A stretch of 64,000 bases of DNA. It comes from a virus (taxonomy: Duplodnaviria > Caudoviricetes). Positions 3,213 through 21,940 of this stretch are shown here, in pieces. Positions within the stretch are counted from its first letter, which is position 1; every line of letters begins with the position of its first letter. Location of the stretch: positions 29,578-93,577 of IMG/VR virus record IMGVR_UViG_2706795957_000001; one strand, given 5' to 3'. A model generated the notes under the pieces. That model did not search any database and was not told the DNA's origin. It was given only the letters and a program-made list of their open reading frames with translations. A program made the position numbers and the translations under genes.

Positions 3213-5018
3213 TTGAACGAGGAGAATAAGAACCTCGTCGCCCAGATCTTTGAGTGGCTCAACTTCAGCGACGACATCGTTGACCTCCTCGAGTTCATCG
3301 GCGACCTACAGGAGTGGGTCGAGGCTGTCCTGAAGGCCCTCGGTGGCAACTTCGGGCCACTGTCGGCCCTGGTCAACGAGCTGATGAACAATGCACCGCC
3401 GCGGTGGTCGTGGATCTCGGACCTGGCCAGCTGGAACCCGATCGGCGATCTGATCAGTGGCCTGCAGACGATGCTTAACCAGATCGGCGAGATCGTCCGC
3501 GGCGTCATCGTCACCCCGATCAACAACATGGTGTCCAACTTCAAGGACTGGTTCCTGGGCCTGGTTGGCTGGCAAAACAACACCACGAGCAAGCATCAGC
3601 AGCTCAACAACATGGTATGGCAGGGCGCCACCACCCAGCCGGTCGAGGAGAACCTCACCGAGCAGCAGGTACGCGATGCTGTCGCAGCCCTGAAGGCGCG
3701 CTCAGAGTCCCTCAAGCGTGAGAACGAGCTTCGATACTCGACCGCGGTTCCGCTGTGGCAGGGTCTGATTCCCGGCGGCGATGTCACGTGCGACATCAAT
3801 ATGGTGTCGGTACGCGACAACTGGGTCGTCCCCATCGCTGGCACATCCGGCGGACAGGGCTTCCCGTCTCACGACCACGGCCCGGGCTCCTACAACTCCA
3901 ACCTCAACCTAGGCAACCTCTACTCGGTCACCGCGAACACGGGCACCGCTCACGTGGGGCCGTTTGCCGCCTTCCGCGCACGCTCCGACGTGGGTCGCAA
4001 TGTGGGCACCTTCCTCGCGCGCGCTGTTGGCTCCCTCACTGACGCGCGGCTGAGCCTGTGGACCTACGACTACGAAAAAGACCGCTGGATGTGCGTCTCC
4101 GTGTCAAACAACTGCGCCTCTCAGATTGGCGTGGACTACGGCTGGGTGGATGCCACATTCCCCGAGGAGTACACACCCTCGGTGGGCGAGCTGATGGCAG
4201 TCATGTGGACGGCTTCCGGCTCCGGGAACATGTTGGTGGCAACCTCATTTGGCTCCGGTGACGGTATCGGAAACTGGAGGATCCCCGCCTACCACAGCGT
4301 GCCCTACGGGAACCATTTGAACGTCAGCCTGACCAACGCCCCCACCCGGGGCACGGCAGTCGCGCTCGGCGTTGCAGCCGGCTGGCGAACTGGTCGAGTC
4401 CCGTTCTGTCAGATCGCACCGAACCTCGGCCAGGTCTACACGCTGCCGCCGCAGTACTGGTTCGACGACTTCAACACCGCGAACAACGCCGCCTATACCC
4501 TGGGCGGCGGCGCGAAGATCAAGGACGGCCACTTCGCCTATCAGGGCGGTGTTGTCGCTGGAACGCACTACATCGTCTACAAGGGCCAGATGTCGACCGA
4601 CGAGATGGCCATCGAAGCCAGCCTCGGTGGCCTGAACATCGTTCCCAGTCAGATTCGCATGCACACCAACACAAATGGCGCCTCTGGTGTCGCTGCACTT
4701 ATCAACACCGCCGACTCGGGTTCCGCCATCCTGCACGTCGTCAACCCCACCGACCCGACGGCGATGACCGAGGTGAAGCGGGTGGGGGGACTCACTACCG
4801 GCGCGGCGCGTTGGCGTATCGAATTCGACCCGAGCACCTCCACCTACTACATCAAACGCAACGGCACCGTCGTCCTCGACTGGGCAGACCCGACCAACAC
4901 CGCCTCTCGCGGAAAGGGCAAGCGCACAGGCGGTCTCGGCTGTACGCGCGCCGCCTTCACTAACAGTCCCGCATGGGATGACCTTCTCATCTACGACATC
5001 GACCAGACCGTCGAATAG
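3213..5018 (+). CDS. Minor tail protein with C-terminal beta-sandwich/lectin-like domain
   Basis: 601 aa; strong SD AAGGAG before TTG; WFDDFN...beta-rich C-terminus; tail context. Confidence 0.75.
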   Translation: MNEENKNLVAQIFEWLNFSDDIVDLLEFIGDLQEWVEAVLKALGGNFGPLSALVNELMNNAPPRWSWISDLASWNPIGDLISGLQTMLNQIGEIVRGVIVTPINNMVSNFKDWFLGLVGWQNNTTSKHQQLNNMVWQGATTQPVEENLTEQQVRDAVAALKARSESLKRENELRYSTAVPLWQGLIPGGDVTCDINMVSVRDNWVVPIAGTSGGQGFPSHDHGPGSYNSNLNLGNLYSVTANTGTAHVGPFAAFRARSDVGRNVGTFLARAVGSLTDARLSLWTYDYEKDRWMCVSVSNNCASQIGVDYGWVDATFPEEYTPSVGELMAVMWTASGSGNMLVATSFGSGDGIGNWRIPAYHSVPYGNHLNVSLTNAPTRGTAVALGVAAGWRTGRVPFCQIAPNLGQVYTLPPQYWFDDFNTANNAAYTLGGGAKIKDGHFAYQGGVVAGTHYIVYKGQMSTDEMAIEASLGGLNIVPSQIRMHTNTNGASGVAALINTADSGSAILHVVNPTDPTAMTEVKRVGGLTTGAARWRIEFDPSTSTYYIKRNGTVVLDWADPTNTASRGKGKRTGGLGCTRAAFTNSPAWDDLLIYDIDQTVE

Positions 5019-5026
5019 GAAACACC

Positions 5027-5740
5027 ATGGCAGACATCACCTATCAGCACGTGACTGCTGAGTGGACCCACCTCATCGAAGACGGCATGGTCGACCTCGA
5101 CGGCAACCCGGACGAGGTTGGCGTCACCGGCAACGTGCGCTTCATCCCCACGATCGACAAAGGTGCGCCGGCGTACCCGACGGGCGATCCGACGCGTTCG
5201 GTCACCATGTCGGAGATCCCCGGCATCGTCGCCAACGGTGTCCTCGAGGACTCCCAAGGCCGCGAAGGTGTATGGCTGGCCGCAACCATCGGTGGCCGGC
5301 CGGTCCAGTGGACGGCACAGCTGAACCTGCGTCACAACAACACGGTCATCAAGACTCGCGACATCACCTTCCTGCCACCGGAATCCGGCACCGAACTCCG
5401 ACTCAATGATGTCGCTGACGAACCCGACATCGACTGGGGCGGCAATCGTGCAACCCCAGTCGTCAACATCCACCTGCCCACCATCGGTGATTTCGTCTAC
5501 ACCTACACCCTGTCGACGGGGGAGTTCGACGAAAACGCCGAACTGTTCTACGTGTTCGGCGACACCAACCCTGTCCGTTGGGATTTCGACATCGACGGTG
5601 ACACGGCCAACATCCGCACCGTCGGCACCGAGGTTGCCGAAGTTCCGAGCGGCGCGCGCTACTGGCTGATGTTCAAGGAAAACGCCGCTGCCCCGACGAT
5701 CGAACTCCAGACCGGACGCGTCCAGAAGGTGATTCTCTGA
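5027..5740 (+). CDS. Minor tail/baseplate protein
   Basis: DxDGNPD..V.G.VRF motif seen in actinophage tail proteins; context. Confidence 0.7.
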   Translation: MADITYQHVTAEWTHLIEDGMVDLDGNPDEVGVTGNVRFIPTIDKGAPAYPTGDPTRSVTMSEIPGIVANGVLEDSQGREGVWLAATIGGRPVQWTAQLNLRHNNTVIKTRDITFLPPESGTELRLNDVADEPDIDWGGNRATPVVNIHLPTIGDFVYTYTLSTGEFDENAELFYVFGDTNPVRWDFDIDGDTANIRTVGTEVAEVPSGARYWLMFKENAAAPTIELQTGRVQKVIL

Positions 5741-17410: not shown

Positions 17411-18680
17411 TCATGACCGACCCAGTCCAGGAAGCAGTCAGCCGCGCCATCGCGACGACCATCGACGAGGACAACACCGACAGCCTATTGGTGCTCGTCG
17501 CGCGCGAGGCACTCAAGCCGGTCCAGGAGGCTGTCGCCGAGGACATCACCGAGGCCTACGACGGCGAGGATGACACGTTCGTCGCTGGATTCAATGCCGC
17601 CCTCCGTTTGGTCCGGGAGTATGTCTAATGACCAGAGCAACAAAAGAGACACGGACCGTCACCCAGCACCGATTCATCTGTCCATGCGACTACGGCACAG
17701 GTGGAGACATCGGCACATTCCAGGACGCCATGAACTGGGCATACGCCAAGGCGGACGAGTTGGGGATCAAGACCACCACCGACGACTGGTGCCGGCTGTT
17801 CCCGGAAGACGACCAGATTGCGATCGTGCTCGAGGAGGTGCGGAAGTGAGCTACAAGGTCACCCTGCGCGACCGCCTGGCGTGGCGACTGGCCAACTGGG
17901 CCCTCGTGGTCGCCACGCCCGAGTACCGCCTCTGGATCTCAACCCTCAACCGTCTGGGCTTCGAAGAGCTCCTCAGGCGGGACCTCGACGTCGAGCTCCA
18001 CGAGTCAGGGAGCTGATATGGCTGAAATTGAAACCCCCTCGAGCCTTCGAGCCCAGGAAATCTCCGACGCACTTCGGGCTGCAGACCTGGCGCTCGCGGA
18101 GGCGGGAATGCACCTGCGGAAAGCCGTCACTCTCGCCGAAGCGGATTATGAGCACAATGACGAGAAGCCTCGCGATCTGCTCGCTGTGGCCAAGCTCCTC
18201 CGCGGCCTGACGTGTGTCGAATACCTGAACTGGGATGGCTATGCCCGGGCAAGGAGGCAACGGTAATGGCTGAGAAATTCACATCGTTCCGTTACCAACT
18301 GTATGAGGTGTACGAGGAGGGGACCGTTCCCGGTGTTGATTACCCGCTCTTCATCACATCCGATTACGAGACTGTCGATAAGCACATGTCGAAGTATCCG
18401 ATGGACGCCTACTCGGTCCGCTGGTGGGTGAAGGCGGATTCGCGTGGATGACGATTTCCAACCCATCGCCGCGGCCACACAGTTCGAGGTTGGCAAGAAA
18501 TACCGAATCCGCCTCGGCGATGACGGGCCGATCTCGACAGCGTTTTGCACGGGCAGAACCGACGACACCATCACGTTCGTACCCGCTCGAGAGGGTGGCG
18601 ACAACTACAGCATCATCCACGCCTATGGATTCGATGCCGCACGATTCCTATTCAATGAAGAGGAGAGCAATGAGCACTGA
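17407..18680 (+). other. Run of small coupled hypothetical genes (17407-17628, 17628-17849, 17846-18016, 18018-18266, 18266-18451, 18444-18680)
   Basis: Abutting or overlapping start/stop codons and phage-like codon usage. Confidence 0.6.
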
Positions 18681-18894
18681 TGTACTCGAGCGCCCGGACG
18701 TCCGGGACTCTGACACCGACGAGCCCGAGAAGGTCGTCCACTACATCAAGCGGAACGAGATCCTCGAGAGTGTGGTCGACGGCAAGTTTGTCCGCACCCT
18801 GTGTGGCGAGATCCTTCAGGTAACCAAGACTGCGAAGGACGGATCGCCCGTATGCGAGAGGTGCAAGGAGATCCACGCGGGGTTGCCGAAGTGA
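18670..18894 (+). CDS. DUF3039-like Zn-binding protein
   Basis: HY.K...I.ESVV.G..V..LCGE......PVC..CKEI pattern of the actinobacterial family. Confidence 0.75.
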   Translation: MSTDVLERPDVRDSDTDEPEKVVHYIKRNEILESVVDGKFVRTLCGEILQVTKTAKDGSPVCERCKEIHAGLPK

Positions 18895-19100
18895 GCGCAT
18901 GCGAGGACTGCTGGAGTGACGCATACGTCAAGTCCAGGATCCGCGGCACCTCTCAGGTCGACGAGTATCAGCGGCTAATCCAAGACCACGCCGGCGGGAA
19001 CATCATCGACCCCGACGACGAGTTCTGGACGGGCTGCAGCGAGGACTGCGCACCGCATTGCATGTCGGATCACCGCGGCGAGCAGTAACCGACCGACACA

Positions 19101-19140
19101 GCGAGACCCCCCTACCAACTCGGTAGGGGGGTCTCGTCGT
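19101..19140. terminator. Terminator hairpin between converging operon and tRNA
   Basis: CGAGACCCCCCTACC/GGTAGGGGGGTCTCG 15-bp stem. Confidence 0.8.
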
Positions 19141-19143
19141 CTG

Positions 19144-19218
19144 TGCCCTGGGTGGGGCTCGAACCCACGCATCTTCCGATTATGAGTCGGAGGCCTTCAC
19201 CAACTTGGCTACCAGGGC
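19144..19218 (-). tRNA. tRNA with CAU anticodon (Ile2 or Met); CCA not encoded
   Basis: GCCCTGG/CCAGGGC acceptor stem; TCCGA-CTCATAA-TCGGA anticodon arm; GTGGG-TTCGAGC-CCCAC T arm; GA-CTCATAA-TC context resembles Ile2. Confidence 0.93.
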
Positions 19219-19269
19219 AGGCCTACTGTACACGATCCCGCGGCCTCCTCCAGATACCCCCGTAGGGTG

Positions 19270-19530
19270 TTTTACAGTGTTTCCCCAGGTGGATTTGACA
19301 TTGCAGCAAATTTACAGGCACCGGTTCTCTAACGAGAGGCTAGACCGGTTCTGAACTGGGGATTCGTCTGTACGAGATTCTGGTTTGCGAAGGATTATGA
19401 GTTCATGGTACTCTGGCTGCATACGCTGCGTATTTCTGTCAAATGCCCTGTTCAGAGTGTGTGCATGCATCTACTTGGACACACATATAATCGCATGAGA
19501 TTGCAGGCATTTTTACAGGCTTTGCAGGCA
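19270..19530. other. Putative attP: core GATTATGAGT (19393-19402) flanked by arm-type repeats TT(T)RCAG(GC)
   Basis: Non-coding and upstream of int; repeats at 19271, 19301, 19311, 19501, 19512, 19521; core identical to the tRNA anticodon loop region. Confidence 0.7.
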
Positions 19531-19571
19531 TCTTCCGGTACGGGTACCCCCCATGGGTAAAAGGAGTCACC

Positions 19572-20930
19572 ATGAGCACAGATGAAGAGAAGAAGGAGCG
19601 CCGGCGGTACGGCCAGGGGTCGACCTACTACCGCGAAGAGCGTGACGTCTGGGTGGCCTCCAAGCGCGTCGGCTACGACAACCGCGGCAAGCCGATCCGG
19701 CTCAGCGCCCAGGGCAAGACTGAGGCGAAGGCCATCGCAAAACTCGACAAGAAGATCCGCGACTTCCGCCTCGGCAAGCAGACCAGCAAGAGCAAGGGCA
19801 CCGTCGGGGAGTACCTCGACCGGTGGCTCTCCGACGTCATCGCCGACGATGTACGACCCACTACATTGCACAGCTACGACAGCTCGGTGCGTAATCAGAT
19901 CAAGCCCACGATCGGCACTAAGAAGCTCGCCAAGCTCACGCCCGAAGATGTTCGCCAGATGCGTCGTGACATTGAGGCGATGTACACCGAGAAGGCCAGG
20001 GCTGACCCCCGATATGCGGAAACGGGCCCGAAGCGCTCGCGCTATGCACAGGTGGTTCTTTCCAAGGCCCTTGCTGATGCGGTTCGTGAAGAGATCATCG
20101 ACCGCAACGTCGCCGACACCATCTACGTGAAGAAGCCGCCGGCCACCGACAAAGAGCAACCCGCGCTCAATGCCGAGCAGGCCAAGCGCCTCCTGCGCGT
20201 AGCACTGGAGAAGAAGGATCGCTGGGCCACCCGGTGGGCGGTTGCGCTCCTGACCGGAGTGCGCCAAGGCGAAACGCTCGGGCTCACGTGGGATCGCGTG
20301 AACTTCGAACGCAAGGAGATCCTGTTCGACAAGCAGCTCCAGGTGCTGCAGAACAGGCACGGGTGCGGCACCGGCAGCGGCAAGAGCTGGCCGTGCGGCA
20401 TGAAGGTGGCGCGCGCATGCCCACACCGCGAGTACGTCATCCAGCCTCAGTACCGCAACCAGGTCAGAATCCTCGAGGAGGGCAAGCGCTCACTGGCGCT
20501 GACGCCGACCAAGACCAAGATGTCCAAGCGCGCGCTGCCGATGTCAGAGCCGCTCGAGAAGATCCTGAGGGCTCACAAGCTGTCCACGATGAACGAGTCG
20601 AACCCACACAACCTGGTCTTTCACTACGAGGATGGCCGTCCGGTCTACCCGCGAGACGACTACGACAACTGGCTCGCCGCCCTGGACGCCGCGGACCTCG
20701 AGCGGATCAAGCTGCACAGCACCCGGCACAGCACCGCGTCGATCATGAGTGACATGGGCATCGACCGCCAGGTGATCATGCAGATCCTCGGACACACCAA
20801 CCTCAACACCACGGCCCGCTACGCCGCGGTGGGCGACACCTTCCGCCGTGAGGCCATGGAGTCGCTGAGCAACCTGCTGGACATGTTCGGCGAGGGTGAC
20901 GCTGGCAACACCCCGGCGCTGGATGTCTGA
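19572..20930 (+). CDS. int: Tyrosine integrase
   Basis: TGVRQGE.LGL.W, KLHSTRH, ILGHTN..TT.RY catalytic motifs; N-terminal arm-binding domain. Confidence 0.96.
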   Translation: MSTDEEKKERRRYGQGSTYYREERDVWVASKRVGYDNRGKPIRLSAQGKTEAKAIAKLDKKIRDFRLGKQTSKSKGTVGEYLDRWLSDVIADDVRPTTLHSYDSSVRNQIKPTIGTKKLAKLTPEDVRQMRRDIEAMYTEKARADPRYAETGPKRSRYAQVVLSKALADAVREEIIDRNVADTIYVKKPPATDKEQPALNAEQAKRLLRVALEKKDRWATRWAVALLTGVRQGETLGLTWDRVNFERKEILFDKQLQVLQNRHGCGTGSGKSWPCGMKVARACPHREYVIQPQYRNQVRILEEGKRSLALTPTKTKMSKRALPMSEPLEKILRAHKLSTMNESNPHNLVFHYEDGRPVYPRDDYDNWLAALDAADLERIKLHSTRHSTASIMSDMGIDRQVIMQILGHTNLNTTARYAAVGDTFRREAMESLSNLLDMFGEGDAGNTPALDV

Positions 20931-21409: not shown

Positions 21410-21462
21410 AAAAAGGGGCAACCCCCGCCTAGTACGTCAGGCGGGGGTTGCTTTCTTCATTT
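21410..21462. terminator. Bidirectional terminator
   Basis: GCAACCCCCGCCT/AGGCGGGGGTTGC with A-run and T-run flanks. Confidence 0.8.
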
Positions 21463-21834
21463 CCGGGGCCGTATTTGACATCCGAGATGAATGTCCGGAT
21501 CAGTTCGTCGATGGCTTTTCGCTGCCGGCTGGTCAAGACTTCCGAACCCACCGGAGGCTCATAGGGGGGCTGTGCCGCATCCCAGGTCTCGCCAAGCCAG
21601 TCCAGGACCCTCTTGACGGAGATCCCCAGGGCCTCCGCGACGCGCTCGAGGGTCTGCCTTTCAACGAGCCGCGGGTCGGCCTTGCCGGTGATGAGCCGGA
21701 CGACGGTGGTGGTGTGCAGACCGGCTTCCTTGGCCAGAGCGGTTGAAGCTCGGGTCACCCGTCCGTGGATTGGTGAGACCCTGCTTCAGCATCGCTTTGG
21801 CCCAAGGCTGCGGTACTTCAGTGGTTTGTCTCAT
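21429..21834 (-). pseudogene. XRE-HTH immunity repressor, apparently frameshifted (+1) at about 21741
   Basis: MRQTTEVPQPWAKAM...PSFN in one frame continues as ALAKEAGLHTTTVVRL in another; span 406 nt = 3n+1; divergent from the early operon, next to int. Confidence 0.75.
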
Positions 21835-21940
21835 AGTAACGACTAGTGTCTCACGCACAACTGCACGCGTCAACAACGACTGTCGGTGGCCGGCGCTATA
21901 GTGTATCTAACGCACAAGTAGACAGCCAGGAGGCATAAGC

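What the first reader, a model, noticed from the sequence alone, without database searches (positions are those of the whole stretch)
19144..19530. attP core equals the anticodon loop of the phage's own tRNA: candidate tRNA-complemented lysogeny
Seen: GATTATGAGT occurs in the tRNA(CAU) anticodon arm (19178-19187) and again at 19393-19402, between two clusters of arm-type repeats TT(T)RCAG(GC). No tRNA half-gene is attached to the second copy. Established: tyrosine integrases often cross over in tRNA anticodon loops and normally rebuild the gene from attP; dependence on a phage-encoded replacement tRNA has been reported for some actinobacteriophages. Inference: integration destroys the host tRNA-Ile2/Met(CAU) gene and the adjacent intact phage tRNA rescues it.
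Basis: partly seen in the sequence, partly recalled or inferred. Interest (0 to 1): 0.72.

Follow-up and report, generated by a model that had tools for sequence, protein, structure and literature searches.

The report
Known tRNA-dependent lysogeny module, phage OneUp
This is the integration site of Gordonia phage OneUp, which is predicted to insert into and destroy the host's only tRNA-Ile2 gene and carries its own replacement copy next door; this arrangement was published for this very phage in 2024, so it is real but not new.

Summary
GATTATGAGT occurs exactly twice in the window. One copy is in the anticodon arm of a tRNA(CAU) gene (19143-19218, minus strand). The other (19393-19402) is at the centre of a lambda-type attP, flanked by same-strand arm-type repeats just upstream of a tyrosine integrase (19572-20930).

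The interpretation also holds, but it is already published. Length (93,577 bp), GC (61.5%) and the terminal CGCGACGCTC identify the genome as Gordonia phage OneUp (subcluster CQ2). Guerrero-Bustamante & Hatfull (mBio 2024, PMC10865867, Table 2) list OneUp as using "tRNA-dependent lysogeny": attB in tRNA-Ile2-CAT, 10-bp core, tRNA not rebuilt, cognate phage tRNA present.

My own checks:
- The single-copy, dnaG-linked tRNA-Ile2 of a genome coordinate-matched to G. terrae 3612 shares 11 bp (GGATTATGAGT) with attP and nothing more.
- Simulated attL/attR contain no rebuilt host tRNA.
- The phage tRNA is Ile2-type (81% identical to a Gordonia tRNA-Ile2, 65% to elongator Met).
- In the sister phage BrutonGaster, the core (TG to AA) and the neighbouring tRNA (Lys-UUU) change together.

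Caveats: integration by OneUp has not been shown experimentally, no natural lysogen was found, and OneUp's repressor gene carries a 1-base frameshift.

The parts
19107..19137 (.). G+C-rich hairpin between the upstream + strand gene (18801-19088) and the 3' end of the minus-strand tRNA. It is a likely two-way terminator.
   Evidence: Read from the sequence. A hairpin sits at the same place in SpeedDemon and next to the native tRNA-Ile2 of Gordonia G002. The consensus terminator scan did not call it because it has no T run, so its function is inferred.
19143..19218 (-). Phage tRNA(CAU), Ile2-type: the proposed replacement for the host tRNA-Ile2 destroyed by integration.
   Evidence: ARAGORN and Rfam RF00005 at 65.4 bits. 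It is the only CAU tRNA in the 93.6 kb genome. It is 81% identical to the dnaG-linked tRNA-Ile2 of Gordonia G002 and 65-66% to the elongator tRNA-Met. All 6 differences from SpeedDemon's copy fall into 3 compensatory stem pairs.
19225..19230 (-). Candidate -10 element (TACAGT) 6 nt upstream of the mature tRNA 5' end.
   Evidence: Inference from the sequence only. TANNNT hexamers lie 6-8 nt upstream of the tRNA in SpeedDemon and DatBoi (read from alignment A1). The sigma-70 consensus scan found nothing here.
19270..19320 (+). P arm of attP: three arm-type integrase sites (19270-19279, 19300-19309, 19311-19320) built on TT[AG]CAG.
   Evidence: Relatives carry repeats at the same positions but with phage-specific sequences: ATTGCGGGCA in the Bantam group and AGGCGGACT in BrutonGaster.
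19392..19402 (+). attP common core GGATTATGAGT, the antisense of the host tRNA-Ile2 anticodon loop plus adjacent stem bases. This is the predicted crossover site.
   Evidence: It is 11 bp identical to the tRNA-Ile2 of G088, the genome coordinate-matched to G. terrae 3612. The surrounding block is conserved in four related phages, and BrutonGaster changes exactly the two anticodon bases.
19500..19530 (+). P' arm of attP: three arm-type sites (19500-19509, 19512-19521, 19521-19530), in the same orientation as the P arm.
19572..20930 (+). Tyrosine integrase, 452 aa (P0001).
   Evidence: Pfam PF00589 (1.2e-24) and PF14659. R231, H382, R385, H408 (nearly invariant) and Y417 are conserved in the alignment. 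It is 57-61% identical to the integrases of BrutonGaster, Mollymur and Bantam.
21429..21876 (-). Immunity repressor homologue split by one extra C at 21741/21742. It belongs to the lysogeny module but may be defective.
   Evidence: tblastn against BrutonGaster gp69 matches residues 1-39 in one frame (97% identical) and residues 39-142 in another (94%). The DNA alignment shows a single-base insertion. The HTH lies in the downstream piece.

Best explanation
The stretch 19143-20930 is the integration cassette of Gordonia phage OneUp and works by tRNA-dependent lysogeny. The lambda-type tyrosine integrase binds the arm-type repeats on both sides of attP. It pairs the 11-bp core GGATTATGAGT with the same 11 bp in the anticodon arm of the host's single tRNA-Ile2(CAU) gene. 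There the anticodon stem supplies the inverted core-type sites and the 7-nt loop probably supplies the overlap region. attP carries no 3' tRNA half, so the crossover cuts the host gene in two and neither junction encodes a tRNA. The complete Ile2-type tRNA gene 175 bp to the left of the core stays linked to the prophage at attR, with its own upstream region and downstream hairpin. It is proposed to restore AUA decoding, so that only cells keeping it survive as lysogens. Shown here: the sequence anatomy, the host target sequence and its copy number, the in-silico junctions, the tRNA class, and covariation across relatives. Inferred: actual recombination at this site, expression and lysidine modification of the phage tRNA, and its necessity.
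For: (1) Identity of the phage. G000 is 93,577 bp, 61.5% GC and ends in CGCGACGCTC, as listed for OneUp (KU998245, CQ2) in PMC5255912 Table 1. PMC10865867 Table 2 lists OneUp with attB tRNA-Ile2-CAT, core 10 bp, tRNA not reconstructed, phage tRNA present, and tRNA-dependent lysogeny 'yes'.
(2) attP anatomy. The core lies between two clusters of same-strand arm-type repeats, strongly enriched over the rest of the genome, directly upstream of a PF00589 integrase.
(3) Host target. All 92 Gordonia genomes carry GATTATGAGTC in CAU tRNAs. In G088, whose tRNA coordinates match three published G. terrae 3612 attB sites, the tRNA-Ile2 shares GGATTATGAGT with attP and little else. tRNA-Ile2 is single-copy in five complete Gordonia chromosomes.
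(4) No long attB-type match to attP exists in any of the 92 genomes.
(5) Simulated integration gives no tRNA at attL, and at attR only the phage tRNA plus the neighbouring host tRNA-Asn.
(6) tRNA class. The Gordonia dnaG-linked CAU tRNA is 72-82% identical to E. coli ileX and 66-69% to metT. The phage tRNA is 81% identical to one such Gordonia tRNA and 65-66% to the Tyr-Thr-Met cluster tRNA.
(7) Covariation. SpeedDemon, Bantam and DatBoi keep the order tRNA(CAU)-attP-int with the same core. BrutonGaster has GGATTAAAAGT in the core and a tRNA-Lys(UUU) at the same position, and that core is 11 bp identical to the host tRNA-Lys(UUU).
(8) The phage tRNA is under selection to fold: there are three compensatory pair changes against SpeedDemon's copy.
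(9) AUA is as rare in the phage as in the host (1.45 versus 1.20 per 1000 codons, a rough ORF-based estimate). A codon-supply role therefore gives no reason for this one tRNA to sit beside attP, apart from the tRNA cluster at genome positions 4110-5426.
Against: No experiment on OneUp is reported in the paper; the Gordonia cases are described there as candidates. I found no natural lysogen: no attL-type junction occurs in the 92 Gordonia genomes, and no close prophage integrase turned up. The elongator tRNA-Met shares 10 of the 11 core bases, so core identity alone barely separates the two possible targets. The phage tRNA is only about 70% identical to the tRNA-Ile2 of the G. terrae 3612-like genome, and whether the host TilS and IleRS accept it is untested. 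The repressor gene is frameshifted in this genome, so this isolate may not form lysogens at all. My core count (11 bp) differs by one from the paper's (10 bp).
Confidence: 0.85

Rival explanations
1. The cassette is built as described, but it is a relic in this isolate. The one-base frameshift in the repressor makes OneUp, as sequenced, unable to establish immunity. The int-attP-tRNA module is then intact DNA that no longer leads to lysogeny. This rival overlaps with the main explanation: it disputes present function, not design.
For: A single extra C at 21741/21742 splits the homologue of BrutonGaster gp69 into two frames.
Against: A 109-aa ORF starting at GTG 21758 still contains the HTH and might act as a shorter repressor. 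The extra base could be a sequencing error; the alignment shows CC in OneUp where BrutonGaster has a single C. Integrase, attP and tRNA show no defects.
Confidence: 0.3
2. The integrase targets the elongator tRNA-Met gene of the Tyr-Thr-Met cluster, which carries the same 10-bp GATTATGAGT, either instead of tRNA-Ile2 or as well as it.
For: Every Gordonia genome examined has this second CAU tRNA containing GATTATGAGTC.
Against: tRNA-Ile2 matches attP over 11 contiguous bases plus about 5 flanking positions. tRNA-Met matches over 10 bases plus about 3 flanking positions (my reading). The phage tRNA is Ile2-type, not Met-type, so a hit in tRNA-Met would go uncomplemented. The sister phage's switch to tRNA-Lys(UUU) fits the Ile2 stem CGGA/UCCG, which tRNA-Lys shares and tRNA-Met (ACGA/UCGU) does not.
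Confidence: 0.04
3. The 10-bp repeat is a coincidence. The tRNA serves translation during lytic growth or counters tRNA-cleaving defences, and the real attP core lies elsewhere.
For: Any CAU tRNA contains TTATGAG, and phages often carry tRNAs for other reasons. This phage has 7 more, though one of ARAGORN's seven calls there has no assigned isotype.
Against: The chance expectation is 0.04 copies. The core sits exactly between the two arm-site clusters. The block is conserved in relatives, and the core and adjacent tRNA change anticodon together in BrutonGaster. No other stretch near int matches any Gordonia genome. AUA use in the phage is not raised.
Confidence: 0.03

Closest known systems
tRNA-dependent lysogeny in actinobacteriophages (Guerrero-Bustamante & Hatfull, mBio 2024, PMC10865867). 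The experimental prototype is Mycobacterium phage Fionnbharth (K4, tRNA-Lys-UUU). Table 2 lists OneUp (CQ2), BrutonGaster (CQ2) and Mollymur (DL).
   Same: All the sequence features agree: a tyrosine integrase of the same phamily, a lambda-like attP with paired arm-type sites, a core of about 10 bp confined to the anticodon loop region of an essential host tRNA, no rebuilt tRNA, and a cognate tRNA gene beside attP. The phage here is itself an entry in that table.
   Different: Nothing differs in kind. For OneUp the published assignment is bioinformatic, whereas Fionnbharth has deletion mutants, complementation and junction sequencing. I count 11 shared bases rather than 10. OneUp's repressor is frameshifted, which the parts of the paper I read do not mention.
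Classical anticodon-loop tRNA integration with reconstruction (for example Mycobacterium phage Yoshi, F2, at tRNA-Ile2 with a 43/45-bp core, or Ximenita, K6, as listed in Table 2 of PMC10865867).
   Same: The integrase family is the same, the sublocation in the tRNA is the same, and for Yoshi the target isotype (Ile2) is the same.
   Different: Those attP sites carry the whole 3' half of the tRNA (core 33-52 bp), so attL rebuilds the gene and no phage tRNA is needed. Here only 11 bp are shared.
Gordonia phage BrutonGaster (CQ2), the nearest relative with this cassette.
   Same: The gene order tRNA-attP-int is the same. The core context GCGAxGGATTAnnAGTTCATGG is the same. The repressor is 94-97% identical, and the last third of int together with the repressor region is about 81% identical at the DNA level.
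   Different: The core has AA instead of TG. The adjacent tRNA is Lys(UUU), and the predicted target is the host tRNA-Lys(UUU). The arm-type repeats have a different sequence, and the integrase is only 57% identical.

Membership tests
tRNA-dependent lysogeny (Guerrero-Bustamante & Hatfull 2024) | A phage tyrosine integrase with an adjacent attP | tested here: met
   PF00589 and PF14659 with conserved R-H-R-H-Y residues. attP with arm-type repeats lies 42 bp upstream.
tRNA-dependent lysogeny (Guerrero-Bustamante & Hatfull 2024) | The attP/attB common core is short (about 8-17 bp) and overlaps a host tRNA gene | tested here: met
   11 bp, GGATTATGAGT, are shared with the tRNA-Ile2 of the G. terrae 3612-coordinate genome G088. 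No longer match to attP exists in 92 Gordonia genomes.
tRNA-dependent lysogeny (Guerrero-Bustamante & Hatfull 2024) | No functional host tRNA is rebuilt at attL or attR | tested here: met
   In-silico recombinants: ARAGORN finds no tRNA at attL, and at attR only the phage tRNA plus the neighbouring host tRNA-Asn. This is a simulation, not sequenced junctions.
tRNA-dependent lysogeny (Guerrero-Bustamante & Hatfull 2024) | [quoted passage not shown] | tested here: met
   It is the only CAU tRNA in the genome. It is closest to Gordonia dnaG-linked tRNA-Ile2 genes (81%), which are themselves closest to E. coli ileX. Isotype is inferred from similarity; lysidine modification and charging were not tested.
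tRNA-dependent lysogeny (Guerrero-Bustamante & Hatfull 2024) | The interrupted host tRNA is single-copy and essential | tested here: inconclusive
   It is single-copy in five complete Gordonia chromosomes. AUA codons are present in host genes at about 1.2 per 1000 (rough estimate). Essentiality itself rests on general knowledge of tRNA-Ile2/TilS and was not tested.
tRNA-dependent lysogeny (Guerrero-Bustamante & Hatfull 2024) | The phage tRNA is required for lysogeny (its deletion gives clear plaques, or integration vectors need it) | not testable with these tools
   This needs phage engineering or integration-vector assays in G. terrae. It is not reported for OneUp in the sections of the paper I read.
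tRNA-dependent lysogeny (Guerrero-Bustamante & Hatfull 2024) | Integration really occurs at this attB (attL/attR observed) | tested here: inconclusive
   No attL-type junction was found in 92 Gordonia species genomes. The three one-mismatch hits are chance: the one I read is the start of a coding region, and the other two I did not open; each is a single substitution from the pattern. Absence among one genome per species says little.
Temperate phage with working immunity | An intact repressor gene | tested here: not met
   A one-base insertion splits the homologue of BrutonGaster gp69. A 109-aa piece containing the HTH remains open.

The most novel reading that the evidence does not exclude
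In G. terrae, tRNA-Ile2(CAU) and tRNA-Lys(UUU) have the same four stem pairs next to the anticodon loop (CGGA/UCCG), and their anticodon loops differ only at the two anticodon bases that separate CAU from UUU. A two-base change in the attP overlap region, together with a swap of the neighbouring tRNA cassette, may therefore be enough to move this integrase lineage between two essential tRNA targets. Target choice and the rescue tRNA would then evolve as one exchangeable module. The 2024 paper notes that close relatives differ in target, but in the parts I read it does not give this explanation.
Probability: 0.45. Interest if true: 0.35.

Novelty: already known. Interest (0 to 1): 0.15.

Why it matters
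tRNA-dependent lysogeny gives a concrete job to at least some phage-encoded tRNAs. It also explains why attB sites of some tyrosine-integrase phages could not be predicted by homology, and it matters for building integration vectors, which must carry the tRNA. For this window the value is confirmatory. An independent in-silico reconstruction agrees with the published assignment for OneUp: host target, copy number, simulated junctions, tRNA class and covariation with BrutonGaster. The work also flags two points worth knowing before anyone uses OneUp experimentally. The repressor is frameshifted, and the elongator tRNA-Met carries a near-identical core.

Tried and rejected
- **Single-protein integrase scan of genome contigs:** it found no relative. 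The profile scan gave 80 distant integrases (39% identity or less), none a OneUp-like prophage. I used it only to obtain a Gordonia genome handle (L025, which became G001).
- **Homologue search with the integrase:** the closest non-phage relatives are 51% identical or less, so no natural lysogen context could be fetched.
- **attL-type pattern GATTATGAGTTCRTGG in 92 Gordonia genomes:** there were no exact hits. I read one of the three one-mismatch hits and it is the start of a coding sequence. The other two I did not open; each is a single substitution from the pattern.
- **Third copies of GATTATGAGTC in some genomes** (for example G010 and G023): they have no tRNA around them and look like chance.
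- **Prophage-borne tRNA in G002/G023:** I first suspected that the GCCCAGG-type tRNA in these genomes came from a prophage. It sits at the native dnaG / tRNA-Asn locus among ordinary host genes (dnaG, a TetR-family regulator, DUF418), so it is the native tRNA-Ile2 of those species.
- **BLAST of a Gordonia tRNA-Ile2 against E. coli genomes:** the ranking put tRNA-Lys first and was uninformative. I fetched the annotated ileX and metT genes instead.
- **Consensus promoter and terminator scans:** they found nothing in 18900-19700. The -10 element and the terminator I name are therefore inference.
- **Rfam hit to 'Plastid-ycf2':** the hit on the + strand over the tRNA is below threshold and is just the antisense of the tRNA.

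Full report
**What is in the sequence.** ARAGORN finds one tRNA gene in the window, a tRNA(CAU) at 19143-19218 on the minus strand. Rfam confirms it as tRNA at 65.4 bits. A 452-aa ORF at 19572-20930 on the + strand is a tyrosine integrase. It matches PF00589 and PF14659, and the catalytic R, H-x-x-R, H and Y residues are conserved across 14 relatives.

The 10-mer GATTATGAGT occurs at 19178-19187 and 19393-19402 and nowhere else. Shuffles expect 0.04 copies. The first copy is the antisense of the tRNA's anticodon loop CUCAUAA plus A31 and U39-C40.

The second copy sits between two groups of same-strand repeats built on TT[AG]CAG. One group lies at 19270-19320 and the other at 19500-19530, three copies each. 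Of the five forward copies of T[TG][AG]CAGGC in the whole 93.6 kb genome, four lie in this 357-bp stretch. This is the layout of a lambda-type attP: P arm, core, P' arm, then int.

**Which phage this is.** The window is bases 29578-93577 of a 93,577-bp virus record. That record has 61.5% GC and ends in CGCGACGCTC. Table 1 of PMC5255912 lists exactly these three values for Gordonia phage OneUp (KU998245), and PMC5559632 places OneUp in subcluster CQ2. The nearest records left in the phage database are BrutonGaster (same genus, Oneupvirus) and then the Bantamvirus group.

**What is already published.** Guerrero-Bustamante and Hatfull (mBio 2024, PMC10865867) describe "tRNA-dependent lysogeny". 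A tyrosine integrase recombines attP with an attB in a host tRNA gene through a core of only about 10 bp, so the tRNA is not rebuilt. A phage-encoded tRNA of the same isotype complements the loss and is needed for lysogens to survive.

[quoted passage not shown] The experiments in that paper are on mycobacteriophages (Fionnbharth, Cluster L, Gaia) and on plaque types of Mollymur and Daredevil. The Gordonia CQ2 cases are called candidates.

**Independent test 1: the host target.** Through a distant integrase hit in a Gordonia MAG (L025) I obtained handles for 92 Gordonia species genomes. All 92 contain GATTATGAGTC, usually twice, while the reversed control pattern is almost absent. The two copies lie in two different CAU tRNA genes:
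- One is the last gene of a Tyr-Thr-Met cluster.
- The other is a stand-alone gene downstream of dnaG and near tRNA-Asn.

The stand-alone class is 72-82% identical to annotated E. coli ileX, which also lies downstream of dnaG-rpoD, and 66-69% to E. coli metT. It is therefore tRNA-Ile2, and the cluster gene is the elongator tRNA-Met.

Genome G088 has one contig of 5,701,501 bp. It carries tRNA-Ala, tRNA-Lys(UUU) and tRNA-Lys(CUU) exactly at the coordinates that PMC5559632 gives for attB-1, attB-5 and attB-8 of G. terrae 3612. I treat it as that strain or a coordinate-identical one. Its tRNA-Ile2 reads, in window orientation...acgGATTATGAGTccgcgg..., against attP ...aagGATTATGAGTtcatgg.... That gives 11 contiguous shared bases, GGATTATGAGT (19392-19402), and only scattered matches beyond. 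The paper counts 10. I cannot see its figure, and the difference of one base does not change the argument.

tRNA-Ile2 is single-copy in five complete Gordonia chromosomes. A BLAST of 19090-19575 against all 92 genomes gave repeated, clearly significant matches only to the tRNA gene; the attP part gave only isolated short matches of E about 0.007 or weaker. There is therefore no hidden long core.

**Independent test 2: the junctions.** I recombined attP and attB in silico at the core, once with G018 and once with G088. ARAGORN finds the host tRNA in attB, nothing in attL, and in attR only the phage's own tRNA plus the neighbouring host tRNA-Asn. After the core, the phage side reads CTTCGCAAACC... 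in tRNA sense. That cannot close the anticodon stem and has no T arm.

**Independent test 3: the class of the phage tRNA.** It is the only CAU tRNA in the genome. The other seven tRNA genes form a cluster 43 kb away, at genome positions 4110-5426. It is 81% identical to the native tRNA-Ile2 of Gordonia G002/G023, about 70% to that of the G. terrae-like genomes, and 65-66% to the elongator tRNA-Met.

Its six differences from SpeedDemon's copy form three compensatory pairs, one each in the acceptor, anticodon and T stems. It is therefore kept as a folding tRNA. Isoleucine identity is inferred from similarity only.

**Independent test 4: covariation among relatives.** SpeedDemon, Bantam and DatBoi all have tRNA(CAU), then attP, then int. 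In some an excise-like ORF lies between attP and int. All three share the block GCGAAGGATTATGAGTTCRTGG.

BrutonGaster has the same block except that TG becomes AA (GGATTAAAAGT). In the same position it carries a tRNA-Lys(UUU) instead of tRNA(CAU). That core is 11 bp identical to the host tRNA-Lys(UUU).

The arm-type repeats keep their positions but differ in sequence between phages, as expected if each integrase's N-terminal domain reads its own sites. The core and the neighbouring tRNA change anticodon together. This is the strongest sequence-only evidence that the two are functionally coupled.

**How it most likely works.** The anticodon stem of the host gene is a natural inverted repeat for two integrase core-binding domains, and the 7-nt loop is a natural overlap region. 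This logic for anticodon-loop integration is established knowledge (Williams 2002, cited from memory). Strand exchange inside the loop leaves the host 5' half at attR and the 3' half at attL.

The phage tRNA gene lies left of the core. It therefore stays on the attR side together with about 175 bp of upstream DNA. That DNA includes a TACAGT hexamer 6 nt before the mature 5' end, and a hairpin follows the tRNA at 19107-19137. Both are read from the sequence and neither was called by the consensus scans, so expression from the prophage is plausible but inferred.

AUA is rare in both phage and host, at about 1.45 and 1.20 per 1000 codons in a rough ORF-based count. The phage has no special need for this tRNA in lytic growth. 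The host still has on the order of thousands of AUA codons to read, by my extrapolation.

**Caveats and rivals.**
- *Elongator tRNA-Met as target.* It carries the same 10-mer. tRNA-Ile2 is the better match (11 bases plus about 5 flanking positions, against 10 plus about 3), and only Ile2 would be complemented. Off-target hits in tRNA-Met cannot be excluded from sequence alone.
- *No natural lysogen.* I found no attL-type junction in one genome per Gordonia species.
- *Frameshifted repressor.* The homologue of BrutonGaster gp69 is split by one extra C at 21741/21742 (first noted in an earlier scan entry). OneUp as sequenced may be an immunity mutant, unless the 109-aa HTH-containing remainder works or the base is a sequencing error. 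In that case the cassette would be intact but unused.

**Verdict.** This is a known system in a known phage. Interest is low (0.15) and novelty is "already known". One small point may be new. The host's tRNA-Ile2 and tRNA-Lys(UUU) share the stem pairs next to the loop and differ only at two anticodon bases. This would explain how sister phages switch targets with a two-base change in the core plus a swapped tRNA cassette.

Noticed in passing
window 21429-21876 (minus strand); extra C at 21741/21742: The immunity repressor homologue is split by a one-base insertion relative to BrutonGaster gp69. Residues 1-39 and 39-142 match in different frames at 94-97% identity. OneUp as sequenced may be a clear-plaque immunity mutant, or the base may be a sequencing error.
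   Followed up: yes
L155 and L157 (G088, the G. terrae 3612-coordinate genome); L003 (BrutonGaster attP): Host tRNA-Ile2(CAU) and tRNA-Lys(UUU) have the same four stem pairs next to the anticodon loop (CGGA/UCCG) and are 82-84% identical over positions 8-63. The two attP cores differ only at the two anticodon bases. This may explain easy target switching between sister phages.
   Followed up: partly
L123, L125, L127 and other Gordonia Tyr-Thr-Met clusters: The elongator tRNA-Met of every Gordonia genome examined carries the same 10-bp GATTATGAGT(C). It is a possible uncomplemented off-target for this integrase.
   Followed up: partly
L134 9967-10041 (G002) and L135 9971-10045 (G023): Two Gordonia species have a native, dnaG-linked tRNA-Ile2 whose acceptor stem (GCCCAGG) and anticodon stem match the phage tRNA (81% identity overall). 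A similarly placed hairpin lies downstream. The phage tRNA may have been captured from such a lineage rather than from G. terrae.
   Followed up: partly
L005 (Bantam) and L004 (DatBoi), tRNA to int region: Bantam and DatBoi have the same attP core as OneUp, but their adjacent CAU tRNA has a different anticodon stem (GGUCA/UGACU) and shares only 9 bp with the core. PMC5559632 Table 2 predicted tRNA-Arg (attB-9) as Bantam's attB. That conflicts with the tRNA-Ile2-type core seen here.
   Followed up: no
genome positions 4110-5426 (outside the window, 5' of it): A cluster of seven further tRNA genes (Ser, Trp, Tyr, Ser, Phe, Asn and one unassigned) lies far from the integration cassette. The CAU tRNA is the only one placed beside attP.
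   Followed up: no
window 19411-19423 and 19437-19455: To the right of the core, the blocks GCATACGCTGC and GTCAAATGCCC..GGTCA are conserved across all five phages (alignment A1). In OneUp the first is part of a palindrome, ATACGC-T-GCGTAT. They may be binding sites for a host bending protein or an excise protein, or int promoter elements.
   Followed up: no
window 18424-18894 (+): An ORF with a DUF3039 domain (7.5e-18) lies two genes upstream of the tRNA. Its function is unknown.
   Followed up: no
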